This document shows, one piece after another, positions 1 to 38,277 of a stretch of DNA of 38,277 nucleotides. The stretch is taken from the UHGV virus genome UHGV-0391791. One strand, 5' to 3'. The DNA is from a virus. Below the pieces are notes generated by a model. The model was not told the DNA's origin. It saw only the letters and a program-made list of their open reading frames with translations, and searched no databases. Within the stretch, counting starts at the first letter, position 1. The number at the start of each line of letters is the position of its first letter. Made by a program: the position numbers and the translations under genes.

Positions 1-1262
1 ACCTTCGCAGACAGATACATGGTTCCAAGATCAGAGAACGATGACAGCAACGCGGATCCGAGTCTGCTGGCAACCAGCCAGTTGCGGATATTGTCAGACC
101 ATCGCGCGATGTGCGGATTCGCTACAGGCTGTGTCTTTCCGGAAATAAAGTTGTACAGATTCTCTGTGTTGTTCGCCAGCCGCTCGACTTTACCGGTTTT
201 ACTCGGGTTAGCTGTTGCCGTTTCTGCCTTCACCTGATCAAGAAGAGAGCGGAAAACATGATCGGGGTTTGGGCCATATGTTTCCACCAGTGCAATATCT
301 TTACTGATACCTTCCAGGTGACCGACCATGATTTCCCATAGAGAGCGATCGCCATAAAGTTGCTGATATTGAAGATAGGAATCTGCATCTTTGAAATGTA
401 TCTGTCGTGATGCATTACCACGGTTAGCACGTGCGCCGGAAATTCGCATTCCGGTATCAGTAAGCTTATTCAACCCACCAGTAGCGATCGTGTTATAAGC
501 CTCTCCAAGAAATGCAGACAACTCGGCATCGTTCATCAGTTGTCCATCGGCTCGGGTATAATATTTGCGATCCAGCTTACCTATAACATCGCTAACCCAT
601 TTATCTTTTGATACCGCCCCAACCTTTTCCATAGAATGATGTTGAGGGATCCCCCAGTTTTCGAGATAGCCAATGTCCCCACCAGCATCATTAAACCGGC
701 GGCGCAGCAGCTCTGTAACTTCTCTCCACGCCTTAGCACCTTTTCTTGCTTTAGCATTGCCAGTATTTTGCCCCCGCATTTCATATACCAGGTCACGTAC
801 GCCAGCTTCATCTTCAAACAGACCAAAAAAGCGAGGATCAACTGCTTCGAATGCCTCCTGCAATTGACTCAATGCATAATCACGGGTGGCTTTTGTTCTG
901 GATTCAACAGAGAGGAAATTCGATTTACCGTCTGCATTAAAAGCAATAGTACGGTTAAGAGCGCCAAGTTTCCCATCAGCCCCTTGATAGCTATTGATAA
1001 ATTTATCCAATCTCTGACGTGCGGCTATAGTGAGGGCCACACGACGTTTCTTTAATGCCGCTTCTCGCTGTAATTCTTCAGATGCCAATTGTGCTGCACG
1101 ATATAGCCGCTCTGATTCGGAAAGTTGTCTCCACGACATCGGGTCATCACGAGCAATAGAGCGCATATTTCGATAAATGCGGTCTTCAATGTTCTGTATT
1201 TCTCGCGCCGTTAACGTGCGCTGCGCCGCCTGCTGGACCGCTTGTATACATTCCTGTCTCAT
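1..1262 (-). CDS. Internal virion/ejection protein, N-terminal part; ORF starts at ATG 1262..1260 and runs off the left edge with no stop
   Basis: Not in the ORF track because it is edge-truncated. Manual minus-strand translation from 1262 (MRQECIQAVQQAAQRTL...) is open to position 1. In frame with the ORF at the right window end if the sequence is circular. Confidence 0.5.
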   Translation of the reverse strand, partial: MRQECIQAVQQAAQRTLTAREIQNIEDRIYRNMRSIARDDPMSWRQLSESERLYRAAQLASEELQREAALKKRRVALTIAARQRLDKFINSYQGADGKLGALNRTIAFNADGKSNFLSVESRTKATRDYALSQLQEAFEAVDPRFFGLFEDEAGVRDLVYEMRGQNTGNAKARKGAKAWREVTELLRRRFNDAGGDIGYLENWGIPQHHSMEKVGAVSKDKWVSDVIGKLDRKYYTRADGQLMNDAELSAFLGEAYNTIATGGLNKLTDTGMRISGARANRGNASRQIHFKDADSYLQYQQLYGDRSLWEIMVGHLEGISKDIALVETYGPNPDHVFRSLLDQVKAETATANPSKTGKVERLANNTENLYNFISGKTQPVANPHIARWSDNIRNWLVASRLGSALLSSFSDLGTMYLSAK

Positions 1263-1267
1263 TTAAT

Positions 1268-3070
1268 TTAACCTCTCAAGAAACACGCCACAGCGACATC
1301 AAACAGGCTGGAATCCTGTATTGCCTGCTCACTTTCCCTGTTCGCTTCATCCAGTACTTCACGCGCGCTGCGCGATTGTGGATTACCATCATCATCCAGC
1401 ACGGTGATTATCATGTCAGGTGATTCAAGCAGCGAGTCTTCAGCTATGCGCAGATCAATATCTCCTGCCTTATCTGACATCATTTTTTGTTCTGCCTGTT
1501 GCAATATTTTATCAGGCTCAAAAGGAGCTACTTCGTCTGGCGTCCTGACCTCTGCTGTTTTATAGAATGAAACAGCCTGAGCATTAAGTTCACTTTCTGC
1601 CTGCTGTCTCCGAGCCAGTTCTGCTCGAGCTTCAAAAAGCTGACCGCCAGGCTCGTGCGGTGCCAACGCGTTACGGGAAAATTCCAGGCGTTCTTGTGCC
1701 TGCCGGATTCGTTGATCAATATCGCGAAGTCTGGCCTGTTTATCTGATCGAGCACGAGACAAAGCTTTACCGCTACCGGTTGGCTCTTCTGCAAGAATTT
1801 GTGCACGCTGTTCAGTGAGATTTTCAATAATTCGTTGGCTATTAGCGATTTCAGACTGGTAAACCTGTCTATCTCCACGCGGCAAAAGCTGCGCGGCCTG
1901 TTCTTCAAGCAACCGATTTTCTATAGCGCGCGCCGTTACTCCATCATCTACAGATGACAGAGCCTCATTAACTGCCTGAGACAGCAGACTCTTGCGCCCA
2001 GGAATTTCACTGAAAGATGCAGACTCAACAATGCTGGCAACGTCTACAGGTCTCCCCTGGCTAACATCAGACATAGCTTTTCGCAGAGCCTGAATGTGAG
2101 AATTGCGCGAAAGCACGTTGATCGGCACGCCGGGCGCAATATCAATTTCAGCATGATGAGCGGCATTCGCCGCCAGTGCAGCATCGATATCAACTGGTGA
2201 AAAATTTGGTGCGTTTGTAGACTCGCCGCGAGAGTTAATAAATCTGCCGACACCACCAAACGCCACCCCAAGAACAGCATCAATAGCAATTGCCTGTCGA
2301 TCCAACACATCATACTGGTTAGCCATTTCGCTATAGCCACCATCACGAAGCGTTTTTGCAGTAAGCCCACGCTGTGCCATACCGAACGCAATATTTGTAC
2401 CTGCGGCATAGGCAATATCTGGCGTTGCACGTACTGCTGTTGCTGCGGCGCGTCGTACTGAACTTTCACCCGTCCGCGCGAGCTGAGCCGCCACACCTTC
2501 CGCCAGCGCACCACCAGCACGTAACCCGAGGCTCATAGGGATCAATGTCCCGGCCCCAGCAGTAATGCCCTGCACTAATCCCGCTTCCTGCGCTGTCCTG
2601 AAATCAACACCCTGTGCTGTCAGCCGTTCAAACTCAGAAAAACCCTGTAGCGAAGTTACCGCCGCTGCACCTCCGACAGGACCACCGAGCGTTGTACCGA
2701 CAACAGCCTGCCCGCCCATATCGAACAACCCATAAAGAACCTGCCCGGCGGTTCCGGTTGTCGCGGCATCAGGCGTCAGCCGCTTAACCTGCTGCTCTGC
2801 TAGTTTTCTCTGCTCGGCAATGTATGAAACTGAAGTGTCATTGAGCGAGGTGTTTTCGTTAACAAACTGAGCAATCGGGGATACGATTTTATCCATCCCT
2901 GCCCATAGCAACTGATCTGGCTTTGCCACCAGCCCGGAGTACAAACCAGACAATGCCGCTCCTACAGCATTGTCGAAAAAACCAACATCGCTGTTAAAGC
3001 CAGCTGGATTTGATACTGCTTCGTCAAGCTGCTGATTCTGGTTTACTGGATTAAGGCCAAAGTAACTCAT
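1268..3070 (-). CDS. Internal virion/ejection protein (600 aa), Gly/Ala-rich central segment
   Basis: Track ORF; lies in the run of large genes downstream of the tail tube genes; start overlaps upstream gene stop (3067..3070), typical translational coupling. Confidence 0.55.
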   Translation of the reverse strand: MSYFGLNPVNQNQQLDEAVSNPAGFNSDVGFFDNAVGAALSGLYSGLVAKPDQLLWAGMDKIVSPIAQFVNENTSLNDTSVSYIAEQRKLAEQQVKRLTPDAATTGTAGQVLYGLFDMGGQAVVGTTLGGPVGGAAAVTSLQGFSEFERLTAQGVDFRTAQEAGLVQGITAGAGTLIPMSLGLRAGGALAEGVAAQLARTGESSVRRAAATAVRATPDIAYAAGTNIAFGMAQRGLTAKTLRDGGYSEMANQYDVLDRQAIAIDAVLGVAFGGVGRFINSRGESTNAPNFSPVDIDAALAANAAHHAEIDIAPGVPINVLSRNSHIQALRKAMSDVSQGRPVDVASIVESASFSEIPGRKSLLSQAVNEALSSVDDGVTARAIENRLLEEQAAQLLPRGDRQVYQSEIANSQRIIENLTEQRAQILAEEPTGSGKALSRARSDKQARLRDIDQRIRQAQERLEFSRNALAPHEPGGQLFEARAELARRQQAESELNAQAVSFYKTAEVRTPDEVAPFEPDKILQQAEQKMMSDKAGDIDLRIAEDSLLESPDMIITVLDDDGNPQSRSAREVLDEANRESEQAIQDSSLFDVAVACFLRG

Positions 3071-5580
3071 TGCGGAATATCTCCGGAGAATCTCTGACGC
3101 TTCTGTGTCAGATCAAGAACAACAGGAGAACCATCATCCTTCAGCAGATATCCAGTCCCAAGTTTTACCAGGTACTGACTATCGCCGTAACTTTGCAAAC
3201 CATACTGACCAGGCGGTGTTTTTATCCCTGTGCCGACAACTTGTTCATTCCAAGCCTGATTAACCTGCTTATCGAATTGCTCTGCAGACATTCCCCACGG
3301 CAAAAGGACATTCCCCATTCCGTTATAGTCATGCACGCCACCTGTAGCTACGTTAACAGCCTGTTTCCAGATATCATTGTCAATTTCGCCTGATACCACG
3401 CCTTTTTTCGCCATCACACCAGCGTAATAGTCCTTTGCGATCTCGTATGCCATTGATGCCCCCTGAGCATCACCAGCAAATGCATCCTTCACCATGTCAG
3501 AAAACTCAAGGCGAAGATCAGCATCTTTAGGCATCGGAATACCTTTCGCATCATCAGTACCTTTACGAGCCGCCGCGCCAGCAAGAATTGTCTGCGCAGC
3601 GGTTTCAGGTGACACGGAAACATCCGGATTAAACCAGTTTTTTTCTGCCAAAATACCACCAGGTTTATCCATCAGTATCCCGGCAACGGCAGCAGATGGA
3701 GCGTTGGCACTGATCTGCTGTAGTGCTGACATATACACCTGCCCACCACCAGTGCTTTGCCTGATGGTATCGAGATATGCTGCCTGTTGGGAAACGGGCG
3801 CATCACGAAAGAAAACACCGATCTGATTGGCCTCGTCTTTGGAAAAGAACGTCAGTGGAGTGCCATATGACTTGGCAAGGTCACTGACCTGAGCGGCACG
3901 CAAGGCAACGCTCTGTCCAAAGTTATCCTTATTGCTCATGTCGATAGGCTTTGCCTGTCCGGCGGCAAGAGAGAACTGCACAGGATCCGACTGCCGCTGC
4001 TTTATCACCTGATTTGCAGCCGAAACAACGTTGTCATAAAGAGCTGCGCGTGCCGCATACCCCTCCCCTGTCTCACCAGTATCCGGGCGTAATTGCTCAA
4101 CATATGCTGTAATGCTGCTTGTCGGCATGTTGCGGAAAGAGCCTATATACTGTCCGGCGATCTGCGTATTTCTGAACTCGGTATATCGCAGGTTTCCTTC
4201 TCTGACGCCATAAGCTGCAATAAAATCAGCCTCACCAGGTGGATTAGGAAATTCAACGCCACGCATATACGCAGCCGTCGCATCGCGAACCTGGCTGTCA
4301 ATCATCGTTTTATATTCAGCCTGCTGCTGCCGACGCAGTTGATCCGCCTGTCGCATATAACTTGCCTGCGCCTCAGGAGATGCCGCATCGAATGCTGCAT
4401 TACCGGTATAGCGTTTGGTGTTGGTTGGAATTGTTGATAAACCAAGTGCTGCACTGACACCAGCAGTTAACTGCTGATCACTGTATGGCTGGCTACCGTT
4501 CTCATGATGGATAATGGCTGCACAAAGCGCCTTCAGGGTATCAGGATTTGATGCATCGAGAGGCTCATCAGCAGAAACGCCAAGTTGTTCGCACACTGCT
4601 TTGATATACGACATAGTGTCATTTTTATCAGTAGGCGGTGCCCAGCGATTAATTATCTCGCTGACTGTATCAATACCCTGCCGCTGATACGACATCAGGT
4701 TCCGCCCTAATGCACGAATCCCGTGTTCAGGTGTTTCGAATTTAGCAAATCGACCATCATCACCGGTCTGGCCTACCCACGGATTAGTTTTGCTGTATTC
4801 GAGATTTCCTGGGTTATTGTTGCGTATGCCACGGGCACGCTCGGAAGAGTCACTATCTGCTACAGCACGGCGAGCTCCAGCAGCAGTATCACTTAACTCG
4901 CCATTACTTTGGATGAATGCGGTCGCATTGTTTGCCGACCACTGGGACAATGCAGCATCAGCAACCTTCTCTTTAAACTCGATTTTCTTGGCCTGGATTT
5001 GCTCGTCACTCCAGCCATGTGCAATGCCGTAATCCTCAATTTGCTGGAAAGTTTGCTTATTAGCCAATACGTATGCGGCGTTGTCGCCATACAATGCTGC
5101 GGCATTTTTACCATTGTTCAGCAGCGCAGCCTGAAACTGGCCTTCTTCGTAGGCATTTATTTGCCCTATCTCGTGCCGCCCTGCCTGCGTAGTGAACTGA
5201 ATGCGCTGCTGCTGCGCCTGCTGCATGAAAGCATTACGAGCCTGTTCATCCGGCAGCGACATAGCCAGTTGTTCGACCTGAGCATCAAACTGCTGCGTAT
5301 ACTCCTGACCTTTTCCAATAGCATTTTTCCCTTTCAGGTTAAGCAATCCTGTTTCAGGATTATTCAGCAGATCGCTGCTTATCTGGCTTAAGCTAAGAGA
5401 AGCATCCTGAGCCATAGCAACATTCGCACGCTGTTTTGCCTGCGCAATAATACCTGCATATTGCTCTGCAACATCGCCAAGTACATCACCGACATTTAGT
5501 GTCTGAAACGATGAGAATCCCTGCGTCGAAATCCCTCTGCTCTGAACCTGACGGCCCGATGTTGTTGGTACAACTGGCAT
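3067..5580 (-). CDS. Large internal virion protein (837 aa), in the position of T7 gp15-type core proteins; possible peptidoglycan-degrading segment
   Basis: Track ORF; size and position in the structural operon; central segment GIRNNNPGNLEYSKTNPWVGQ recalled as muralytic-like (unverified). Confidence 0.55.
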   Translation of the reverse strand: MPVVPTTSGRQVQSRGISTQGFSSFQTLNVGDVLGDVAEQYAGIIAQAKQRANVAMAQDASLSLSQISSDLLNNPETGLLNLKGKNAIGKGQEYTQQFDAQVEQLAMSLPDEQARNAFMQQAQQQRIQFTTQAGRHEIGQINAYEEGQFQAALLNNGKNAAALYGDNAAYVLANKQTFQQIEDYGIAHGWSDEQIQAKKIEFKEKVADAALSQWSANNATAFIQSNGELSDTAAGARRAVADSDSSERARGIRNNNPGNLEYSKTNPWVGQTGDDGRFAKFETPEHGIRALGRNLMSYQRQGIDTVSEIINRWAPPTDKNDTMSYIKAVCEQLGVSADEPLDASNPDTLKALCAAIIHHENGSQPYSDQQLTAGVSAALGLSTIPTNTKRYTGNAAFDAASPEAQASYMRQADQLRRQQQAEYKTMIDSQVRDATAAYMRGVEFPNPPGEADFIAAYGVREGNLRYTEFRNTQIAGQYIGSFRNMPTSSITAYVEQLRPDTGETGEGYAARAALYDNVVSAANQVIKQRQSDPVQFSLAAGQAKPIDMSNKDNFGQSVALRAAQVSDLAKSYGTPLTFFSKDEANQIGVFFRDAPVSQQAAYLDTIRQSTGGGQVYMSALQQISANAPSAAVAGILMDKPGGILAEKNWFNPDVSVSPETAAQTILAGAAARKGTDDAKGIPMPKDADLRLEFSDMVKDAFAGDAQGASMAYEIAKDYYAGVMAKKGVVSGEIDNDIWKQAVNVATGGVHDYNGMGNVLLPWGMSAEQFDKQVNQAWNEQVVGTGIKTPPGQYGLQSYGDSQYLVKLGTGYLLKDDGSPVVLDLTQKRQRFSGDIPQ

Positions 5581-15200: not shown

Positions 15201-15277
15201 GTGGCATTAGCTCAGTTGGACAGAGCAACCGCCTTCTAAGCGGTTGGTCGCAGGTTCGAATCCTGCATGCCACGCCA
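15201..15277 (+). tRNA. tRNA-Arg, anticodon UCU (reads AGA), phage-encoded, argU-like
   Basis: Manual cloverleaf: 7-bp acceptor stem GTGGCAT/ATGCCAC, D-arm GCTC/GAGC, anticodon stem ACCGC/GCGGT with loop CTTCTAA, T-arm GCAGG-TTCGAAT-CCTGC, discriminator G plus encoded CCA; 77 nt. Confidence 0.85.
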
Positions 15278-28073: not shown

Positions 28074-29324
28074 TTATTCCCCCGCCATCCACTTCTCAAA
28101 CTTCGACGGGGAGAACGGAATCAGATCCGTATGCTCCCCGTTAATCCAGGAATCAATCATATCGGCCCACTGCTGCAACATGTAGGCGCGCTGTCTGGCG
28201 TATTCCGCTTTGTTATATACGGCGCGCACACCTTTCTGCTCATGTGCCAGAGCCTTTTCAATCCAGTCTGAAGGATAACCAGCCTCATGCAACAACGTAC
28301 TGGCTGTACGGCGCATATCGTGTACGGTGAAGCCCTGAATATGCTCACCATCTTCATTTATTATTTTCACCGTTCTGTCGATCAGAGAGTTCAGCGCGGC
28401 ATTAGATAATGGCTTCCGGAAATTGTAACGACCAGGAACCAGATATTCACTTCCACCAGCGCACATCTGCAACCCAACCAATATATCCTGTGCCTGTTTA
28501 GGCAGGTAAATAACGTGCGCCCGGCTTCCCTTCATGCGGTCTGAAGGAATTGTCCATGTCCATTTTTTAAAATCTATTTCATCCCACGTTGCATTGGTGA
28601 ATTCGCCTTTACGAACCATAGTGATAAGCACCAGCTTTAAAGCCATTTTCATAGTGCCCATAGCACCAATGGCATCCAGCGTGCGGAAGAACAGGCCAAT
28701 TTCTTCTGGTGTCAGTGTTCGCTCTCGTGGTTTAAATATGGCGATAGACGAAGGTTTAATGTCAGCCGCAGGATTAAACAAACCATGACCACGGTCATTG
28801 GCGTGACGGTATACGCTGCTGATGATCTCCCTGGCCTGTACTGCTGTTGCACGGCCACCGCGTTCGACAATCCGGTCACACAAATCACGAACCATCGATG
28901 TGGTAATTTCAGCCATCATTTTGTTGCCAAGAACCGGAAGTATGTCACGGTCGATCACCGCCTGCTTCATTGCGCGGGTACTGTCAGCCAGGATGACGTG
29001 TTTCATATAACTGTCGGTATGTACCGCAAACGTCTCGGCACCACGAATCTTTTTGATACCGTCACGTTTAGCCGCAGCCGGCGACTGGCCTGCTTTAAGC
29101 AGCTTCTTTGCAGCAATCAGTTCTTCTCGCGCTTCTGCCAGGCTGATACCGTCACGCCCATACTGCCCGATTACCAGTGTTTCGCGGCGACCGTTGATAC
29201 GGTAGTCATAGCGAAACGAGACCGTGCCTGACGTAAGCACAGCTACATACAGCCCGTCACGATCGGAGACCTTGTACAGTTTGTCCTGCGGCTTGAGGTT
29301 TTTTAATTTTGTATCGGTAAGCAC
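28074..29324 (-). CDS. int: Tyrosine integrase, P4-type (416 aa)
   Basis: Track ORF; N-terminus MLTDTKLKNLKP...LYVAVLTSGTVSFRYDYR typical of P4-like integrases; C-terminal catalytic region HDMRRT...VRAVYNKAEY. Confidence 0.9.
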   Translation of the reverse strand: MLTDTKLKNLKPQDKLYKVSDRDGLYVAVLTSGTVSFRYDYRINGRRETLVIGQYGRDGISLAEAREELIAAKKLLKAGQSPAAAKRDGIKKIRGAETFAVHTDSYMKHVILADSTRAMKQAVIDRDILPVLGNKMMAEITTSMVRDLCDRIVERGGRATAVQAREIISSVYRHANDRGHGLFNPAADIKPSSIAIFKPRERTLTPEEIGLFFRTLDAIGAMGTMKMALKLVLITMVRKGEFTNATWDEIDFKKWTWTIPSDRMKGSRAHVIYLPKQAQDILVGLQMCAGGSEYLVPGRYNFRKPLSNAALNSLIDRTVKIINEDGEHIQGFTVHDMRRTASTLLHEAGYPSDWIEKALAHEQKGVRAVYNKAEYARQRAYMLQQWADMIDSWINGEHTDLIPFSPSKFEKWMAGE

Positions 29325-29339
29325 AATTCACCCGTATAG

Positions 29340-29620
29340 AAACCATTTTCATGACGGTATGAGAGTATACCTTTAAGGTAATACCGTCACCTGTACCGCC
29401 GAAAAATATGGTGTAGAGTGAATAGAAATGAATACATAAAAACAAAAACCCTCTGCAAAAACAGAGGGTTGAGTTGGCATCTGAATAGGAATGATTTGCT
29501 ATGAGTTAGCTGTTAATCATTCCCACTCAATTATTTACGATACACATAAACAATTGACTGATAACAACTTTCTTCCAAATGATTTTCACCGTACCGTTTT
29601 ATATACCGTCACCGGAAATC
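29340..29620. other. Candidate attP: arm-type repeats TACCGTCACC (29382, 29604; inverted copy 29352; partial 29587) flanking a 9-bp inverted repeat GGAATGATT/AATCATTCC (29488..29523)
   Basis: Repeats read directly from the sequence; location adjacent to the integrase start. Confidence 0.35.
29438..29468 (-). terminator. Rho-independent terminator ending the leftward tailspike-lysis operon before the integrase
   Basis: Minus strand CCCTCTG-loop-CAGAGGG followed by TTTTTGTTTTT. Confidence 0.6.
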
Positions 29621-30742: not shown

Positions 30743-31040
30743 GTTTAGACCTCGATATTTTGAAAATATGAACAACGTTACCGCGTGTTTTAATAACCGC
30801 GGCAAGCATGACAGCGTTGATAATGACCTCAGATAAATCCACAGCCATTGGCGTGCGTAACCAGATTGCATAGACGACACGAACAGGAATACTTGCCGCA
30901 GCAACAATAAGGAAATAAGCAAGCCACCCTCCCCATCTTCGATGTTGAGAGCCGTTACGCCGGAATGTGACAACGCGAATTGCTATGCCAGTACAAATAA
31001 CTGCATTGGTGATAAGCAAAAAAAACTCATGCGTTACCAT
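30732..31040 (-). CDS. Small membrane protein of the lysis cassette (102 aa; holin/antiholin candidate)
   Basis: Track ORF; about three hydrophobic segments; sits between the other membrane protein and the endolysin. Confidence 0.4.
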   Translation of the reverse strand: MVTHEFFLLITNAVICTGIAIRVVTFRRNGSQHRRWGGWLAYFLIVAAASIPVRVVYAIWLRTPMAVDLSEVIINAVMLAAVIKTRGNVVHIFKISRSKHGD

Positions 31041-31431
31041 CGTCTTTTCTCCCCGGAATTAACTCGCGTGGATTATCGGAACGGTGATAGAGCCAGATGC
31101 CAATACGCACGGCGACAATTGCTGACACGAATGCGCCTGCAGAGAAAACAATCCCTTTTTCAAAAGAGTCCTGCGTGATGGTAGGGATCAGGCTGGCTAT
31201 GCCGATAAGAATTGATGCTGCTGGTTTGTAAAAGAGAAGGCCGCAAAGAAAGCTGAGCATCGACAGGAGCACCCGGCGACGGATGGGGTACTCTACTGCA
31301 GAGGTAACAAAAATTACCGCCCCAGCCAAAGCCCCTAAAGCAACCTCCGGAGGGACACCTGCAATAACCGCAGCAAGAGAACTAACACTAAGCCACTGAT
31401 TTGAAGTTTCATTGGTTAGTTGGAATGACAT
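31027..31431 (-). CDS. Membrane protein (134 aa), holin candidate
   Basis: Track ORF; multiple hydrophobic helices; first gene after the tailspike. Confidence 0.45.
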   Translation of the reverse strand: MSFQLTNETSNQWLSVSSLAAVIAGVPPEVALGALAGAVIFVTSAVEYPIRRRVLLSMLSFLCGLLFYKPAASILIGIASLIPTITQDSFEKGIVFSAGAFVSAIVAVRIGIWLYHRSDNPRELIPGRKDDGNA

Positions 31432-31503
31432 AACGAAACCCGTTTATTTGCAAACACCCTGCTTCAGGAAAAGTATACCGCGCAACAACACACCATTTAC
31501 GGT

Positions 31504-33966
31504 TCAATTCCCTGTTAATTGCAAAACTTGCTCTTCCAGCTTTTTAACCCTGCGTCTCATCATCGCAGATTCCAGAATCAGAGCCTCTTCATAACGGATA
31601 CCGTAACATTCACCAGCCTCGACGGCTTCGCGTACCAGAACCTTTGTCTGTATAAGTGGGTAAACTCCTGCAGAATGCTCTTCTTCCGTCACATCCCTGT
31701 ATTCTGCCGGGGTCTCATTCCACTTGTCATAACAGATAAATGCCAGTCGTGACACATCTATGCCTTCATTCTGAAATACACTGATAACATGCTGCGCAAC
31801 TGCACCAAAGTGCCATCTTGCTCCGTCTTTACCTTTCACTTCGATCCTGTCAAGGTACTGGTATGAAACCCATTCCACTCTTTCCCATGCGTCCAGTATT
31901 TTCTCATCAATAACCTCTGGAGCAGTCTTGAAACGCGCATCGGACAGCACCGTAAACGCTGACTGGGTAAATCCCCCCGACCATGCACGACCAGCCAACC
32001 CAAGAGAATAAGTATTCGTTGTCGATGGTGTCATGGCTGAATCAGAAAACTGTATATATTCTGAATTTCCAGTAGATATTCGAATATTTCCATTTATTAG
32101 CGACATAGTGCCTTTAGTATTATCACTATTGAATAATTTCAATTGCGAACTTATACCGCCTCCCACAGCCAGAGATACATCGCCTTCAGCAAGCATTCTG
32201 AATTTATCTGCAGAAACAAGCGTCTGGTTAGCAAGGTTAAAATATTTAACCCACCATTCAAAACGCCCTGACATAGTCCCAACGTACTGACCAAGCGCAG
32301 GGACGTGAACAACATTGCTATTTGTAGTGCCGTCTATACTGGAAATACCAGTCACCGCTGATGCAGAACTCAGAATATTATTTCTGTCACCCGGATGTTT
32401 AATTTCAACAAAGTTCCTGATACACCCTTCCTCGAAGGTAACCACGCCGGAAGAACTATACATGGGGAATATTGACGCATAATTACTGCGTGCAGCATCT
32501 AAGAAACGAATGGTTGTAGATGTCTGCAGATCTCCTGATTCATTTTTCCCATCACACCCAGTCATTAGAATATTACTGGCAATATTATTATTTCCCTGAA
32601 CGGTGACTCCGTGCGCCTGCTTTGCGTCCGATTCAGAGTAATCAACCAGCACATTCGAAATCAGGTTACCAGTCCCCTTGCCAACAACTACTGCGGCGTA
32701 TTTTGGGTTGTTAGCCATTACACTGCTAATGATATTATTCGTTGGGGCAGTTTCCGTCTCAGTTCCATTGTAAACAACGTGCTGACACTCTTCACCAATA
32801 ACATTGCTGACAATGTTATATTTTGCTGCTGTTTTAAGTTCCACTGCACCAAACTGAGGATAATTTCTGGCTATCACACCATCAATTAGCGTATTTTGCG
32901 ATGAATCAAAAAGCACACAACCTGCTTTTTTATTATTTGCGAACCCTAAATACTCTCCTCTTATATCTCTAACAATGTAACCTGACGGAATACCATTATT
33001 CGGATAAGCGATCAAGCTAAATCCTGTTCCTCGCGTATTTGTAAATCTGATATTTTTAACCGATACATCATGGCCACCTGAAAATGACACCTGGTGTCCC
33101 TGCACACTATCATCTGATTTATTTCCCATAATTGTTAGCGTACTAAGCATGCCACCATCGGGCATGTTAAAAACCAGATGATTACCATCTCTGTCATACT
33201 GTTTTATCGTTCCCCCACCTGTTCCGTACAAGCCACAACGTGAAAGAGAAACTAAAGATGTATTGAATACCCCTTCCGGAACAAAAACACTGCTAAACGA
33301 ATGTAATGATTTTGTAAAAGCATCCTTGTTATCATTTAAGATTCCATTTTGAGCTCCAAAATCCTTAATGCTGACACCATCACGCATCTTATCCTGGAAC
33401 GTTCTGTATACCGCTCCAGAACCATACTGAATAAACCAACCAAAACCACCAATAACTCCGGCGATTGCAGCATCGACATAATTACGCATTGAGCGATTAT
33501 TTACAGCGTCCTGCTCAAGTGATGGATCGGCAAGGTTAGATATTCTGTTTTGCTTTGCATCGTAATATTTTGCAAGCAAAGATGGTTTCATCAATGCACG
33601 TCTGAACCACCCAAAACATCGCTGGATCAGCATCGTCAGGTAGTCAAATGCATCCTCATGAACTTCGGGGAAAAATTTTCCCTGATTGCGAAGATCAGTC
33701 TCCTGCACCACATCAAGCACACGCTCTATCGTGATTCGCCAGCCAGCAGCAAGCGGCGACGGAAGAACCACTGCACCGCCACTATAAGTTCCCGCCCCTG
33801 TTACCGTATAACCAGCATCCAGCACTAGTTTTGTAACGTTACCGTTAAGGTCAGACACCTGAACAACCAGGTCGGATTTTTTGAAAATACGGAAGGTATA
33901 CGGAAATGATGTCGTAACGCCGTTACCTGTGTATTCGTTGTGGTCAACTTCGGTTGAGACCGTCAT
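31504..33966 (-). CDS. Tailspike / tail fibre (820 aa) with C-terminal intramolecular chaperone (peptidase S74-like) domain
   Basis: Track ORF; Asn/Gly/Ser-rich central region; C-terminal block ...SDARFKTAPEVIDEKILDAWERVEWVSYQYLD...GARWHFGAVAQHV typical of self-cleaving chaperone domains. Confidence 0.8.
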   Translation of the reverse strand: MTVSTEVDHNEYTGNGVTTSFPYTFRIFKKSDLVVQVSDLNGNVTKLVLDAGYTVTGAGTYSGGAVVLPSPLAAGWRITIERVLDVVQETDLRNQGKFFPEVHEDAFDYLTMLIQRCFGWFRRALMKPSLLAKYYDAKQNRISNLADPSLEQDAVNNRSMRNYVDAAIAGVIGGFGWFIQYGSGAVYRTFQDKMRDGVSIKDFGAQNGILNDNKDAFTKSLHSFSSVFVPEGVFNTSLVSLSRCGLYGTGGGTIKQYDRDGNHLVFNMPDGGMLSTLTIMGNKSDDSVQGHQVSFSGGHDVSVKNIRFTNTRGTGFSLIAYPNNGIPSGYIVRDIRGEYLGFANNKKAGCVLFDSSQNTLIDGVIARNYPQFGAVELKTAAKYNIVSNVIGEECQHVVYNGTETETAPTNNIISSVMANNPKYAAVVVGKGTGNLISNVLVDYSESDAKQAHGVTVQGNNNIASNILMTGCDGKNESGDLQTSTTIRFLDAARSNYASIFPMYSSSGVVTFEEGCIRNFVEIKHPGDRNNILSSASAVTGISSIDGTTNSNVVHVPALGQYVGTMSGRFEWWVKYFNLANQTLVSADKFRMLAEGDVSLAVGGGISSQLKLFNSDNTKGTMSLINGNIRISTGNSEYIQFSDSAMTPSTTNTYSLGLAGRAWSGGFTQSAFTVLSDARFKTAPEVIDEKILDAWERVEWVSYQYLDRIEVKGKDGARWHFGAVAQHVISVFQNEGIDVSRLAFICYDKWNETPAEYRDVTEEEHSAGVYPLIQTKVLVREAVEAGECYGIRYEEALILESAMMRRRVKKLEEQVLQLTGN

Positions 33967-34070
33967 GTTAAATCTCCAGATAGTCGCAGCACCCGTTGCG
34001 CCGCATATCTGGTTATTCTATTACCCAAAAAACCATATATGGATAGAAAGACTGTGAATATGAATAGATA

Positions 34071-34085
34071 TTACCTTTCAGGTAA
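34071..34085. promoter_or_regulatory. Operator site TTACCTTTCAGGTAA (identical to 14864..14878) in the tailspike / antirepressor divergent region
   Basis: Perfect dyad. Confidence 0.55.
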
Positions 34086-34122
34086 TTTGCAAAACGTGCT
34101 GGATAGCAAACAAATTATTTGC

Positions 34123-34142
34123 TACTGTATAAATATACAGTT
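34123..34142. promoter_or_regulatory. LexA (SOS) box TACTGTATAAATATACAGTT
   Basis: CTGT-N8-ACAG with AT-rich spacer, close match to the E. coli consensus TACTGTATATATATACAGTA; about 20 bp upstream of the first antirepressor-module ORF. Confidence 0.65.
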
Positions 34143-34162
34143 ATTGCATGGAGAAGATTAAG

Positions 34163-34420
34163 ATGCAGCAGTATCACTATCCACTGGAAGAGGGATTTAC
34201 CGAAAGGATTCACACGCCGGGAGGCGTCAGGTCACTGGTGGAGGGATCGCACTTGATGAAATTACTCCGGGATCTCGATAAGGATGGATTTAATGTCGAT
34301 GGCCCACTTGCCGAACTGACTGCACTGATTAACTACGTCACCAGCTCACAGATGTCTATGCAGGATCTGCAAACACATCTCGACTATTGTGCCGAACAAT
34401 TACGAAAACAAACCAGATAA
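34163..34420 (+). CDS. Small protein homologous to the C-terminal domain of the downstream antirepressor (about 85 aa from MQQYHYP); candidate SOS-induced antirepressor
   Basis: In-frame part of track ORF 34148..34420; SD GGAGAAG; IHTPGGVRSLVEGSHLMKLLRDLDKDGFNVDGPLAELTALINY aligns with [43 protein letters not shown] of 34738..35394. Confidence 0.5.
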   Translation: MQQYHYPLEEGFTERIHTPGGVRSLVEGSHLMKLLRDLDKDGFNVDGPLAELTALINYVTSSQMSMQDLQTHLDYCAEQLRKQTR

Positions 34421-34737: not shown

Positions 34738-35394
34738 ATGAACGCTCAACTCATCCCCGTATTCAACGGCACTATATCTAACGAAACAGCCCTACTTTGT
34801 AATGCCCGCGATCTGCACGCTTTTTTAGGTGTTAAAAAGGTGTTTGCAGCATGGATTACAAATCGCATATCAGAATACGAATTCATTGAAAATCAAGACT
34901 ATATTTTGCTTTCCAATTTGGGAAAGCAAACATCTGGTAGAGGCGGCCACAACCGCAAAGAGTACCACCTCACCCTTGATACAGCCAAAGAGCTGGCGAT
35001 GGTCGAGCGTAACGAAAAAGGTCGCCAGGTGCGACGCTACTTCATTGAATGCGAGAAACGTTTAAGACAACAAGAAACAAAAGTGGAGAAGGTCTTGTCA
35101 GGCTTCATGCCCGCCATTATGGAGGCGATCAAGCTGGAAGACAAAAAAGAATACAGTGCCCCACTGAAGCCCGGCTACCGCAGCCTGATTCACTCGCCGT
35201 CTGGTGTTCTCGGCCTGACGGAGAACTCACTGCTGATGAATCTGCTGAACCAGTTACAGGACGACGGGCACGACGTATCGGGCGCGGCGGCGGAGCTGAC
35301 CACCATGTTCTGCTACATCGTTGGTGTGAGCAAATGCCTGCGTGATATCCAGACGCACGCGGAGTACATCAACGACAAGGCAGGGTTCTTCTGA
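34738..35394 (+). CDS. Antirepressor (218 aa), AntA/AntB-type N-terminal domain plus C-terminal domain shared with 34163..34420
   Basis: Track ORF; N-terminal segment ...[30 protein letters not shown]...[42 protein letters not shown] recalled as antirepressor-type; SD GGAGA. Confidence 0.65.
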
Positions 35395-36464: not shown

Positions 36465-36845
36465 TCACGCAACGCAATTATTACCGCGCCATGTAACATT
36501 TTTAATAATCTTATCAGCACCAAACTCAACGTAAACAGAGCAACTGAAATGGAGTGTATAACCGCCATCAGTTGTTGCGTATGTGTTTGAATATATAGTA
36601 TTACCAATTAGATTAGACGTAGTATTATACGTTGTGGTTTGTGGTACGTTATAACTACCAGAGCTTGAGTAAACATACACTCTGTTTCCATCTGGAGATG
36701 TAATCTCTCCCTGAGGATACCCCCACTGCTGAACCATTGCGTCTATACTCTGCCCGCGCCACGTAAGCATATTTCTTTCAAACTGTGCAGCTGACTGGCA
36801 TCCAACGAGAAGCATAAATCCAAAAATCAAAAATACTTTTCTCAT
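36465..36845 (-). CDS. Lipoprotein (about 126 aa; signal peptide MRKVFLIFGFMLLVGC)
   Basis: Track ORF 36465..36881; internal ATG at 36845 preceded by SD AGGGG; lipobox LVGC; Tyr/Thr/Asn/Ser-rich mature part. Confidence 0.5.
   Translation of the reverse strand: MRKVFLIFGFMLLVGCQSAAQFERNMLTWRGQSIDAMVQQWGYPQGEITSPDGNRVYVYSSSGSYNVPQTTTYNTTSNLIGNTIYSNTYATTDGGYTLHFSCSVYVEFGADKIIKNVTWRGNNCVA
36466..36479. repeat. 14-bp palindrome, inverted copy TGTGACATGTCACG (copy 3 of 3), overlapping the lipoprotein stop codon and next to hairpin GGCCGC-gaaa-GCGGCC
   Basis: Reverse complement is CGTGACATGTCACA, identical to copies 1 and 2. Confidence 0.8.
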
Positions 36846-36892
36846 AATTACCCCTATCATGGAAAAACAGCACCAATCCACAAATTAACTAG

Positions 36893-37081
36893 TTATTTTA
36901 TTATTCTTCCGAACAATACAATTCCGAATACTACAAAGCCGAACCATGCCGCTGCACGCAACAGAGATTCCAATTGAAACCCATTTTTATCAAAATGTAT
37001 GAATAGCATAAAAACGCTGCACATATTAGTACAATAAAAGTTATTTGAACCATCATATCTCCTTTTATTGCGGAGTGACAT
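36893..37081 (-). CDS. Small ORF (62 aa) with hydrophobic C-terminus; uncertain
   Basis: Track ORF; start overlaps the stop of the upstream large gene; AT-rich. Confidence 0.25.
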   Translation of the reverse strand: MSLRNKRRYDGSNNFYCTNMCSVFMLFIHFDKNGFQLESLLRAAAWFGFVVFGIVLFGRIIK

Positions 37082-38277
37082 CCTGTGGTCGCCACCAGTA
37101 TGTCTGGTTAAACTCTTTCTTCGAACGTTGCTCCATTTTACGCAAATAGCCTGGTGAAAAATACTCCTGCATCTGGTTAAAGATCATGTGATCGAGAGCC
37201 GCCTTCAAGTACCAGAGATTCGCACCAGGCATCAAACCTTTCCCCAGCTTCACCAGATCACCACCAGTCTGCTCACTCTTCCCTTCCACAGCATTTAACG
37301 GTATGCCCTGAGCAATCTTCACTACGTCATCAACCAGACCAGCTACCGGGCCAAGCATCGACGCCAGCGCGCCGCTTCCGTACCTAGTGTGATCTGACAA
37401 TAAAAAGTCACCGTAAAGGCCAAGACCACCACCTTTCAGTAGAGCACCAAGCCAAAATTTAGCAGCATCTTCTCCTGTCATCTCGCGAGGATTACGACCA
37501 GACGCAAGGTCGTTAAGTTGCTGCGACAAAGCGCCAAGAATGGTCGTACTGGCAATAAACGTCGCAATATATGCCGCACGCCCACCAGCAGACGGCATAC
37601 CCATAGCGCGTGACCAGTGACGCATAACCACCGAGATAGGGAACGATTTAAACAGGAAAACACTTCTCGTTAATTCACCTTTCCATGTTCCACGCTGAAT
37701 ACCAGAACCGGTTATCAGTTGCTCACGTGCTCCCGGTGTAATAACAGCCATATCAACTTCTTCAGTTACGGCACCGAGCAGTTTACGCATTGCCTCAAAT
37801 TTCACGCGTTCAGGCTCACCAAGATGTTTAACTGCTGAATCAGGGATACGCATAATGCTTTCCGGTGTCAGCATCGTATTATTGCCGTTCCCCCAGTCCT
37901 CCTGTTGCGCCAGCTTCCATACGCTCCAGTCTGTGTCAGTAATCCCTTTGCTTTTCAGGATACGAAAATCAGAATCATCGAGGCTACGAAGGTCTGGTGT
38001 CCGTGACACTACTTCTCCCAAGCTTCCCATCATGGTTACGCCATAGGCGCGCTTGTGCGCATCTGACCATGCTGTAAGCCCACTGGCACGCATTACCGCC
38101 GTTGCAGCCCAACGAGACACAGACGGCCCCATATTATCCATCGCCCAGCGGTTAACGCTGCCAAGTAGAGATTCCATCGCCAGACCAGCGCGGCGCGCCC
38201 GCGCAAGTTCTGTACGGTTCGTTGGGTCCATAGCTTCAAGCTGGTTGCGGAATAACTGGTTCATTGGAAGGTTGGTA
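37065..38277 (-). CDS. Internal virion/ejection protein, C-terminal part; ORF is open upstream to the right window edge and is in frame with the left-edge ORF 1..1262
   Basis: Track ORF 37065..38264 starts at the first Met, but the four codons upstream (T-N-L-P) are open to the window end. Confidence 0.5.
   Translation of the reverse strand, partial: TNLPMNQLFRNQLEAMDPTNRTELARARRAGLAMESLLGSVNRWAMDNMGPSVSRWAATAVMRASGLTAWSDAHKRAYGVTMMGSLGEVVSRTPDLRSLDDSDFRILKSKGITDTDWSVWKLAQQEDWGNGNNTMLTPESIMRIPDSAVKHLGEPERVKFEAMRKLLGAVTEEVDMAVITPGAREQLITGSGIQRGTWKGELTRSVFLFKSFPISVVMRHWSRAMGMPSAGGRAAYIATFIASTTILGALSQQLNDLASGRNPREMTGEDAAKFWLGALLKGGGLGLYGDFLLSDHTRYGSGALASMLGPVAGLVDDVVKIAQGIPLNAVEGKSEQTGGDLVKLGKGLMPGANLWYLKAALDHMIFNQMQEYFSPGYLRKMEQRSKKEFNQTYWWRPQDVTPQ

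What the first reader, a model, noticed from the sequence alone, without database searches (positions are those of the whole stretch)
31504..33966. Mosaic tailspike: conserved N-terminal anchor and C-terminal self-cleaving chaperone around an AT-rich receptor-binding core
The N-terminal coding part (about 33500..33966) and the C-terminal chaperone-domain part (about 31504..32000) look GC-normal, whereas the central part (about 32000..33400) is visibly AT-rich and encodes an Asn/Ser/Gly/Ile-rich beta-helix-like region. This pattern is typical of horizontal exchange of the enzymatic host-specificity domain. The chaperone domain implies proteolytic maturation after the Ser in ...LSDARFK. The specificity (O-antigen or capsule type) is likely different from close relatives.
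Basis: partly seen in the sequence, partly recalled or inferred. Interest (0 to 1): 0.45.

Follow-up and report, generated by a model that had tools for sequence, protein, structure and literature searches.

The report
Prophage K5-capsule lyase tailspike, two modules
This gene encodes the tail spike of an epsilon15-like temperate E. coli phage: a shared virion-attachment head is joined to a swapped-in enzyme that very probably cuts the K5 (heparosan) capsule and carries its own self-cleaving folding domain, which is a well-known design and almost certainly the already described ElmA type of enzyme.

Summary
ORF 31504..33966 (-) encodes 820 aa. Its central 1.4 kb has the lowest GC of any same-size stretch in the window (40.5% vs 49.1%), and it ends in a Peptidase_S74 chaperone domain.

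The gene has two modules, not three.
- Module 1, aa 1-196: the virion anchor, ~92% DNA-identical in 493 of 5,426 complete E. coli genomes. There it is fused to endosialidase, GH28-like, SGNH and other heads.
- Module 2, aa 197-820: a K5 (heparosan) lyase core plus its own chaperone. Both parts have the same nearest relatives, the K5 lyases of phages K5, K1-5, Kayfuna-, Vectre- and Kagunavirus (~60% and ~52% identity). Both occur in the same 68 genomes.

In sister prophages, homology resumes only after the stop codon. The chaperone's higher GC is also seen in the lytic-phage K5 lyase genes, so it is a property of the module.

Family precedent places the cut before Ser675 (Leu674|Ser675; Ser675/Lys680 dyad), not after it.

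Lysogens are enriched for the K5 gene kfiC (37/68 vs 233/5,358).

The protein is probably ElmA (Legoux 1996), but I could not check that sequence. This is ordinary, already-known biology and of low interest.

The parts
31504..33966 (-). Complete tailspike gene, 820 aa (89.7 kDa), stop codon at 31504-31506
   Evidence: ORF list. The exact protein is WP_000218900.1, found on 463 contigs. Molecular weight.
33974..33977 (-). Shine-Dalgarno GGAG, 8 nt upstream of the ATG
   Evidence: Read directly from the sequence.
33379..33966 (-). Module 1: N-terminal virion-anchor module, aa 1-196 (beta-sandwich plus start of the coiled-coil neck, by homology)
   Evidence: - About 92% DNA identity over nt 1-~600 in 493 of 5,426 E. 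coli genomes, fused to different heads.
- A sharp identity drop after ...YRTFQDKMRD, at nt ~585.
- Matches the N-termini of 24 PHROG tail families.
- aa 1-179 align to aa 1-183 of Dpo31 of podovirus Carin-1 (PDB 28lx/8ck1, E = 6.5e-30). That protein's D1 domain sits at the virion base (PMC13317679).
31945..33378 (-). Module 2a: K5 (heparosan) lyase-like right-handed beta-helix plus C-terminal trimerising stalk, aa 197-674. This is the AT-rich part.
   Evidence: - aa 199-675 match K5 lyase KflA, PDB 2x3h, at E = 5.8e-185.
- phrog_14895 at E = 5.8e-178.
- About 60% identity to the K5, K1-5, Kayfunavirus and Kagunavirus lyases.
- GC 0.411, GC3 0.336.
31507..31944 (-). Module 2b: C-terminal intramolecular chaperone / Peptidase_S74 domain, aa 675-820 (16.9 kDa), predicted to be released
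   Evidence: - Pfam PF13884, E = 1.4e-13.
- Aligns to the released GA-1 gp12 chaperone (3gud), the endoNF chaperone (3gw6) and T5 pb1 (4uw8).
- About 52% identical to the chaperones of K5 lyases.
31942..31947 (-). Predicted scissile bond Leu674|Ser675 (codons CTG?/TCx of ...FTVL|SDARFK)
   Evidence: - The 3gud chain, which is the released chaperone, begins with SDERHK aligned to Ser675.
- MyRF is cut P586|S587, with S587 equivalent to endoNF S911 (PMC8326128).
- This is an inference, not shown for this protein.
31927..31929 (-). Lys680, predicted general base of the Ser-Lys dyad
   Evidence: Aligned to the Lys of ...ERK in 3gw6 (endoNF K916) and of SDERHK in 3gud. The dyad S911/K916 is described in PMC8326128.
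31449..33381 (.). The exchanged cassette relative to sister epsilon15-like prophages: core + chaperone + ~55 nt of 3' spacer
   Evidence: blastn against L002-L005. Homology ends at window 33385-33317 and resumes at 31448-31402, at the holin start 31431.
31027..31431 (-). Holin gene immediately downstream. It is the first gene of the conserved lysis cassette that forms the 3' homologous flank.
   Evidence: phrog_198 holin; annotation of the identical locus in strain 4/0.

Best explanation
The gene encodes the tailspike of a complete, circularly permuted ~38 kb epsilon15-like temperate coliphage. It is a two-module chimera.

Module 1 (aa 1-196) is the lineage's common adaptor, which fixes the trimer to the tail.

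Module 2 (aa 197-820) is a K5-lyase cassette. It has a right-handed beta-helix that binds the K5 capsule (heparosan, -4GlcA-beta1,4-GlcNAc-alpha1-) and cleaves it by beta-elimination. This is followed by an interdigitated stalk and a C-terminal intramolecular chaperone of the S74 family.

Proposed mechanism. After translation the three chaperone domains nucleate trimerisation of the stalk. The Ser675/Lys680 dyad then cuts the Leu674-Ser675 bond. This releases a 16.9 kDa fragment and leaves a 72.8 kDa mature spike. On the virion the spikes digest a path through the K5 capsule to the outer membrane.

Module 2 was acquired as one piece, enzyme plus its cognate chaperone. The 5' recombination junction lies just after ...FQDKMRD and the 3' junction lies in the spacer before the holin gene. 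Its low GC is a signature that this enzyme family carries in every phage that has it.

What is shown: domain homologies, junctions, co-distribution, GC pattern, and enrichment of the K5 gene kfiC in lysogens.

What is inferred: lyase activity, K5 specificity, autocleavage and its exact bond, and identity with ElmA.
For: - KflA homology: E = 5.8e-185 over aa 199-675. A full-length K5-lyase-type spike, 9vvr, matches at E = 1.3e-225 over aa 192-814.
- tblastn hits to annotated K5 lyases of phages K5 and K1-5 span aa 201-817 in one alignment.
- Identity is ~60% for the core and ~52% for the chaperone against four phage lineages.
- The chaperone alone has its best phage hits in K5-lyase phages (47-49%); everything else is 42% or lower.
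- Core DNA and chaperone DNA occur in exactly the same number of genomes, 68 of 5,426, all at >=99% identity.
- The N-terminal ~600 nt occur in 493 genomes, with other enzymatic heads.
- Junctions are mapped.
- Pfam S74 is above its cut-off, and Ser675/Lys680 align to the catalytic dyad.
- The core has lower GC than the chaperone in all four lytic K5 lyase genes as well.
- Strain 4/0, which has a 100% identical gene, carries kfiA, kfiC and kfiD.
- 37 of 68 lysogens have kfiC, against 233 of 5,358 other genomes (odds ratio 26).
- Genome context: the gene lies upstream of holin, GH19 endolysin and Rz, with attP and integrase next.
- The literature lists ElmA as a prophage K5 lyase with this chaperone domain (PMC3594737; PMC8326128).
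Against: - Identity to the biochemically characterised KflA is only ~60%, and 40% in aa 201-300. Specificity is therefore inferred.
- 31 of 68 lysogens lack kfiC. One of them, MS8320, has a K1 (neu) capsule locus.
- The K5 enrichment is not corrected for clonality; many lysogens look like ST131.
- The deposited 2x3h chain ends with the residue equivalent to Ser675. This leaves a one-residue ambiguity about the cut.
- The ElmA sequence and the primary papers were not available, so identity with ElmA rests on memory of its length (820 aa) and origin.
- KflA's proposed catalytic residues could not be checked.
Confidence: 0.85

Rival explanations
1. Three-module mosaic. A conserved N-terminal anchor and a conserved C-terminal chaperone stay in place, and only the AT-rich enzymatic core is exchanged between phages.
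For: - GC is lower in the core than at both ends.
- The S74 chaperone is a widespread domain found at the C-terminus of many unrelated spikes; it matches 11 PHROG families.
- The sister prophage's endosialidase also ends in such a domain.
Against: - There is no DNA homology to sister loci anywhere between gene nt ~650 and the stop codon.
- The chaperone is 30% identical to the sister endosialidase's chaperone but ~52% identical to those of K5 lyases.
- Sensitive blastn finds the chaperone DNA only in the same 68 genomes as the core.
- The same GC step between core and chaperone exists in K1-5, K5, Kayfunavirus and Kagunavirus lyase genes.
Confidence: 0.04
2. The core is a K5-lyase homologue that has drifted to another substrate. 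It might act on a different capsule or O-antigen, or bind without cleaving. In that case the phage is not K5-specific.
For: - Identity to KflA is only ~60%, with the N-terminal turns of the helix at 40%.
- 31 of 68 lysogens have no kfiC.
- MS8320 carries a K1 locus.
- Another K5-lyase-like fibre, that of phage ES17, is reported to bind heparan sulfate on mammalian cells.
Against: - kfiC is strongly enriched among lysogens, odds ratio 26.
- The K5 locus is intact in the 100%-identical reference lysogen.
- Long invariant blocks are shared with all K5 lyases, such as NYPQFGAVELK, NNPKYAAVV and QAHGVTV.
- From memory, the 820-aa prophage enzyme ElmA was purified as a heparosan lyase.
- kfiC-negative lysogens are easily explained by replacement of the capsule locus after lysogeny.
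Confidence: 0.08
3. The GC dip is purely a by-product of the Asn/Ser/Ile/Gly-rich beta-helix composition and says nothing about horizontal transfer.
For: - The core is 37.7% N+S+G+I.
- First-position GC differs most between parts: 0.466 in the core against 0.56-0.60 at the ends.
- The within-gene contrast is only p ~0.02-0.03.
Against: - Third-position GC is also lower, 0.336 against 0.43.
- Transfer is shown independently of composition, by homology breakpoints and by the 68-versus-493 genome distribution.
Confidence: 0.03

Closest known systems
ElmA, the chromosomal (prophage-borne) N-acetylheparosan lyase of E. coli K5 (Legoux et al. 1996, J Bacteriol 178:7260; listed as a prophage K5 lyase in PMC3594737 and as an example carrying the intramolecular chaperone domain in PMC8326128)
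   Same: - It is prophage-encoded in E. coli.
- It is a K5-lyase homologue with a C-terminal autocleaving chaperone.
- From memory ElmA is 820 aa, the length found here.
- The gene sits in K5-capsulated strains.
   Different: Nothing demonstrable.
KflA / K5 lyase of lytic coliphages K5, K5A and K1-5 gp46 (PDB 2x3h; Thompson et al. 2010)
   Same: - The same beta-helix lyase core, stalk and S74 chaperone, collinear over aa 201-817.
- The same Ser-x4-Lys motif.
- The same low-GC core and higher-GC chaperone.
   Different: - Identity is only ~60% in the core and ~52% in the chaperone.
- KflA has a 30-aa N-terminus that docks on an adaptor protein of an SP6-like virion, instead of the 196-aa epsilon15-type anchor.
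- The chaperone here has a loop about 17 aa longer, at aa ~751-780.
- The host phage here is temperate, not lytic.
Tailspikes of sister epsilon15-like (pro)phages of E. coli, such as vB_EcoP_ZX5, phiv142-3, EC.W1-9 and K1-type prophages with endosialidase heads
   Same: - The N-terminal 196 aa are 85-87% identical in protein and ~92% in DNA.
- The gene position is the same, between the antirepressor block and the holin.
   Different: Everything after aa ~196 is unrelated (endosialidase beta-propeller, GH28-like, SGNH and others). Where a chaperone is present it is only 30% identical.
Endosialidase endoNF C-terminal intramolecular chaperone domain (PDB 3gw6), GA-1 gp12 (3gud), T5 pb1 (4uw8): MEROPS/Pfam family S74
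   Same: Domain homology (E = 1e-19 to 1e-21), conserved Ser/Lys dyad, and position directly after a trimeric stalk.
   Different: About 30% identity. The cores they assist are different (sialidase, neck appendage, fibre).
Dpo31 tail-spike of marine podovirus Carin-1 (PDB 28lx/8ck1; PMC13317679)
   Same: - N-terminal ~180 aa are homologous (E = 6.5e-30).
- The four-part layout is the same: beta-sandwich anchor, coiled-coil neck, beta-helix, and a released ~18 kDa C-terminal domain.
   Different: The beta-helix is unrelated, and so are the substrate and the host.

Membership tests
K5 (heparosan) lyase tailspikes (KflA/ElmA family) | Catalytic right-handed parallel beta-helix homologous to KflA over its whole length | tested here: met
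   phmmer against PDB 2x3h: E = 5.8e-185, aa 199-675 aligned to chain residues 66-542 without gaps. phrog_14895: E = 5.8e-178.
K5 (heparosan) lyase tailspikes (KflA/ElmA family) | Beta-eliminative cleavage of heparosan | not testable with these tools
   This needs enzyme assays. It is inferred from homology only.
K5 (heparosan) lyase tailspikes (KflA/ElmA family) | Conservation of the catalytic residues proposed for KflA (Thompson et al. 2010) | not tested
   The paper was not held, and the residue list was not recoverable from citing papers. Only overall conservation was measured: 65-67% identity over aa 301-600.
K5 (heparosan) lyase tailspikes (KflA/ElmA family) | Carried by phages whose hosts make the K5 capsule | tested here: inconclusive
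   37 of 68 lysogens carry kfiC, against 4.3% of other genomes. Strain 4/0 has kfiA/C/D. However, 31 lysogens lack kfiC and MS8320 is K1. The test is not corrected for clonality.
ElmA (Legoux 1996) specifically | Sequence identity to the published ElmA protein | not testable with these tools
The papers were not held. No source name in the cluster mentions ElmA. The length of 820 aa matches my recollection only.
Peptidase S74 / C-terminal intramolecular chaperone domain | Pfam PF13884 match above the gathering score | tested here: met
   51.3 bits against a cut-off of 22, aa 675-735.
Peptidase S74 / C-terminal intramolecular chaperone domain | Catalytic Ser and Lys five residues apart at the start of the domain | tested here: met
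   In S675-D-A-R-F-K680, Ser675 aligns to residue 1 of the released GA-1 chaperone and to the S911A position of 3gw6. Lys680 aligns to K916 (dyad defined in PMC8326128).
Peptidase S74 / C-terminal intramolecular chaperone domain | Autoproteolytic release after trimer folding | not testable with these tools
   This needs SDS-PAGE or mass spectrometry of the expressed protein.
Epsilon15-like podophage tailspike (N-terminal anchor type) | N-terminal domain homologous to that of epsilon15-like phage spikes, and the same gene position | tested here: met
   - nt 1-346 are 73.7% identical to Salmonella phage VB_ST_E15, and nt 1-615 are ~92% identical to coliphages ZX5, phiv142-3 and EC.W1-9.
- Synteny with holin, endolysin and Rz downstream and the Bro/Ant block upstream.

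The most novel reading that the evidence does not exclude
The K5-lyase spike may be more than a virion part. It is kept at 99-100% identity in lineages that have since replaced their K5 capsule locus, for example by K1. It also lies 157 nt from a near-consensus LexA box that heads a divergent small antirepressor-like gene. It could therefore be expressed from the prophage under SOS stress. In that role it would act for the lysogen, trimming its own heparosan capsule or host heparan-sulfate NAc domains, and the prophage would double as a record of the lineage's former capsule type.
Probability: 0.06. Interest if true: 0.5.

Novelty: already known. Interest (0 to 1): 0.15.

Why it matters
It matters little for basic biology. 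Modular tailspikes, K5 lyases and S74 chaperones are textbook, and a prophage K5 lyase (ElmA) was cloned in 1996.

There are three practical points.
- RefSeq/PGAP names this protein only 'tail fiber domain-containing protein', and no NCBIfam model hits it. A precise label (K5/heparosan lyase tailspike, ElmA type) could be transferred to several hundred genomes.
- The unit of exchange is the enzyme plus its cognate chaperone. This is the boundary to respect when engineering chimeric spikes: the junction lies after ...FQDKMRD.
- About half of the lysogens no longer carry K5 genes. Prophage spikes may therefore mislead capsule-type prediction, and they may record past capsule switches in clones such as ST131.

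Tried and rejected
- I tried to read Clarke 2000, Thompson 2010 and Legoux 1996. None is held. So ElmA's sequence and length and KflA's catalytic residues could not be verified.
- Literature searches for 'KflA' returned only ophthalmology noise. Searches for ElmA gave no sequence details.
- NCBIfam gave no family.
- I first assumed the window was a prophage end plus host chromosome, by analogy with strain 4/0. This was rejected. The window is a circularly permuted whole phage genome, whose early region and integrase match the AR_0086 prophage up to window 29531.
- I first took the PDB hit Dpo31/Dpo36 for a Klebsiella depolymerase. It is the spike of the marine podovirus Carin-1.
- PHROG scoring suggested that the chaperone fits a mixed family (phrog_1171) better than the K5-lyase family. 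tblastn showed this reflects loop length, not closer kinship: no phage chaperone exceeds 49% identity, and the best are K5 lyases.
- The promoter/terminator consensus scans around the gene gave counts no higher than the shuffled controls.
- I did not run structure prediction, because solved homologues cover all three parts.
Full report
**1. What is there**

The ORF 31504..33966 on the minus strand encodes 820 aa. It starts at an ATG preceded by GGAG. The exact protein is RefSeq WP_000218900.1, seen on 463 contigs and named only 'tail fiber domain-containing protein' or 'phage tail protein'. NCBIfam has no model for it.

The window is not a chromosomal fragment. It is a complete, circularly permuted epsilon15-like temperate phage genome of 38.3 kb.
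- On the minus strand the order runs terminase, portal, capsid, tail and ejection genes. It wraps around the window ends to a small block of opposite-strand genes (Ant/Bro-type). The tailspike follows, then holin, holin, GH19 endolysin and Rz.
- The integrase follows.
- Window 13000-29531 matches the prophage of E. coli AR_0086 at 99.4%, and the match ends at 29531, the attachment-site side.

**2. The observation**

The GC claim is correct.
That is lower than every other window of the same size (mean 0.491, sd 0.027).
- The two ends are 0.471 and 0.479, at the 24th and 30th percentiles.
- Third-position GC is 0.431 / 0.336 / 0.432 for the three parts (chi-square p = 0.02). Composition of the encoded protein is therefore not the whole story.
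- The core is indeed Asn/Ser/Gly/Ile-rich: 37.7% against 23.5% and 17.9%.

Pfam places Peptidase_S74 at aa 675-735 (E = 1.4e-13) and gives a weak Beta_helix match at aa 278-438.

**3. What the parts are**

Sequence search of solved structures gives three results.
- aa 199-675 match K5 lyase KflA (2x3h) at E = 5.8e-185.
- aa 192-814 match a full-length 843-aa tail spike (9vvr) at E = 1.3e-225.
- aa 1-179 match Dpo31 of podovirus Carin-1 (28lx/8ck1) at E = 6.5e-30.

The C-terminal part matches the chaperones of endoNF (3gw6), GA-1 gp12 (3gud) and T5 pb1 (4uw8).

In Dpo31 the N-terminal beta-sandwich D1 sits at the base of the virion, followed by a coiled-coil neck, a beta-helix and a released 18-kDa D4 (PMC13317679). 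That is the same layout as here.

PHROGs agree.
- The first 195 aa hit the N-termini of 24 different tail families.
- The core hits essentially one family, the 632-position K5-lyase family.
- The last 146 aa hit the C-termini of 11 families.

**4. Where the mosaic junctions are**

Distribution among 5,426 complete E. coli genomes:
- 493 carry the first ~580-650 nt of the gene at about 92% identity.
- Only 68 carry the rest.
- The other genomes have endosialidase, GH28-related, SGNH and other heads under the same N-terminus.

I aligned the window against four sister loci: an endosialidase prophage, a GH28-type prophage, a pseudogenised one, and phage EC.W1-9.
- Homology runs from upstream genes into the spike gene and stops at gene nt 582-650.
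- It resumes only 56-100 nt after the stop codon, at the start of the holin gene.
- In 30-nt bins, identity falls from 26-30 of 30 to background between nt 570 and 650. This lies right after ...YRTFQDKMRD (aa 196) and before the ...DFGA... motif.

The exchanged cassette is therefore window ~31449-33381. It includes the chaperone.

**5. Core and chaperone travel together**

- The K5 lyases of phages K5 and K1-5 (Zinder-/Vectrevirus), Kayfunavirus and Kagunavirus align in one piece to aa 201-817, or from aa 147-193 onward. Identity is ~60% in the core and ~52% in the chaperone.
- The chaperone of the sister prophage's endosialidase is only 30% identical.
- With the chaperone alone as query, the best phage hits are all K5-lyase phages (47-49%). 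Everything else is 42% or lower, and endosialidases are 27-39%.
- Sensitive blastn finds the chaperone's DNA only in the same 68 genomes as the core, all at >=99%.
- The 'GC-normal' chaperone is not a sign of separate origin. In K1-5, K5, Kayfunavirus and Kagunavirus the core is likewise lower in GC (0.44-0.47) than the chaperone (0.47-0.49).

The gene therefore has two modules, not three.

**6. Processing**

- The motif ...FTVL-S675-D-A-R-F-K680 aligns with the start of the released GA-1 chaperone, whose chain begins SDERHK. It also aligns with the S911A/K916 positions of endoNF.
- In MyRF the cut was mapped by mass spectrometry to P586|S587. S587 and K592 there are equivalent to endoNF S911 and K916 (PMC8326128).
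- The predicted cut is thus Leu674|Ser675, which is before the serine and not after it. It would give 72.8 kDa and 16.9 kDa fragments.
- One caveat: the deposited 2x3h chain ends with the equivalent Ser. The cut has not been shown for this protein.

**7. Specificity**

Homology points to heparosan (K5). I added an independent check.
- Strain 4/0, whose spike gene is 100% identical, carries kfiA, kfiC and kfiD in its kps locus.
- A concatenated kfiC + spike-cassette query hit 301 genomes at 338 places. This implies that 37 of the 68 lysogens have kfiC, against 233 of 5,358 other genomes (odds ratio 26, Fisher p = 3e-31).
- The p-value is inflated by clonality.
- 31 lysogens lack kfiC. MS8320 has a K1 neu locus instead. 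This is most simply explained by replacement of the capsule locus after lysogeny.

**8. Relation to the known**

- Reviews list ElmA as a prophage-borne K5 lyase of E. coli K5 (PMC3594737). Another paper lists it as one of the founding examples of proteins with this chaperone domain (PMC8326128).
- From memory ElmA is 820 aa. I could not obtain its sequence, so 'this is ElmA' remains very likely but unverified.
- A rare 820-aa variant that is 89% identical also exists (P0016).
- Across about 5.8 billion proteins, the cassette's relatives are these two lineages and then the lytic-phage K5 lyases at 54-58%.

**9. Verdict**

This is a correctly spotted but ordinary feature.
- The mosaicism is real, but it is a two-part join of a lineage-specific anchor with a complete lyase-plus-chaperone cassette.
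- The specificity can be named as K5.
- The family, the mechanism and very probably this protein are already described.

Noticed in passing
window 34123-34142: There is a near-consensus LexA (SOS) box, TACTGTATAAATATACAGTT. It has 1-2 mismatches to TACTGTATATNNATACAGTA, with 0.01 matches expected by chance. It lies 5-20 nt upstream of the small + strand ORF 34148/34163..34420 and 157 nt upstream of the tailspike ATG on the other strand. The 16-nt core is conserved at the same place in four related prophage loci (L001-L004). It probably marks an SOS-controlled antirepressor.
   Followed up: partly
window 34148-34420 (+) and 34738-35394 (+): The 90-aa ORF (phrog_450) is homologous to the C-terminal ~85 aa of the neighbouring Ant/Bro-N-type antirepressor (aa 135-216). 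It is a free-standing copy of that protein's C-terminal domain.
   Followed up: partly
window ~31200-34400 versus L001 (E. coli 4/0 prophage): A 3.2-kb tract is 100% identical between the window and the strain 4/0 prophage. It covers the whole tailspike gene, the start of the holin gene and the small upstream ORF. Outside it, the lysis genes have 2-8 mismatches per 100 nt and regions further out have 17-60 per 100 nt. About 7 kb of ejection-protein genes (window 36473-38277 plus 1-5162) have no blastn match at all. The same spike gene therefore sits on clearly different backbones.
   Followed up: partly
L014 (E. coli MS8320, NZ_CP059339.1 3246681-3253129), and the genome counts: 31 of 68 genomes with this K5-lyase prophage lack kfiC. 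MS8320 carries a K1 polysialic-acid (neu) region 2 instead. The prophage spike may thus record a capsule type that the lineage has since replaced.
   Followed up: partly
window 29300-29600 and 28074-29324 (-): The window is a circularly permuted whole phage genome. Similarity to the integrated prophage of strain AR_0086 ends at window 29531, next to the integrase gene. This lies in a 35-37% GC stretch that probably contains attP.
   Followed up: partly
window 15201-15277 (+): There is a phage-borne tRNA-Arg (anticodon TCT) between the portal and terminase regions. The strain 4/0 prophage annotation also shows a tRNA-Arg next to its portal gene.
   Followed up: no
tailspike aa ~751-780 (window ~31627-31716): The chaperone domain has a loop about 17 residues longer (ETPAEYR... 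and ...QTKVLVREAVE) than the chaperones of lytic-phage K5 lyases. The endoNF chaperone has a loop of similar length at this position.
   Followed up: no
P0016 (820 aa, from the search for homologous proteins): A rare second allele of the whole spike is 89% identical. Most substitutions are concentrated in aa ~197-420, the first turns of the beta-helix. The anchor and the chaperone are nearly unchanged.
   Followed up: no
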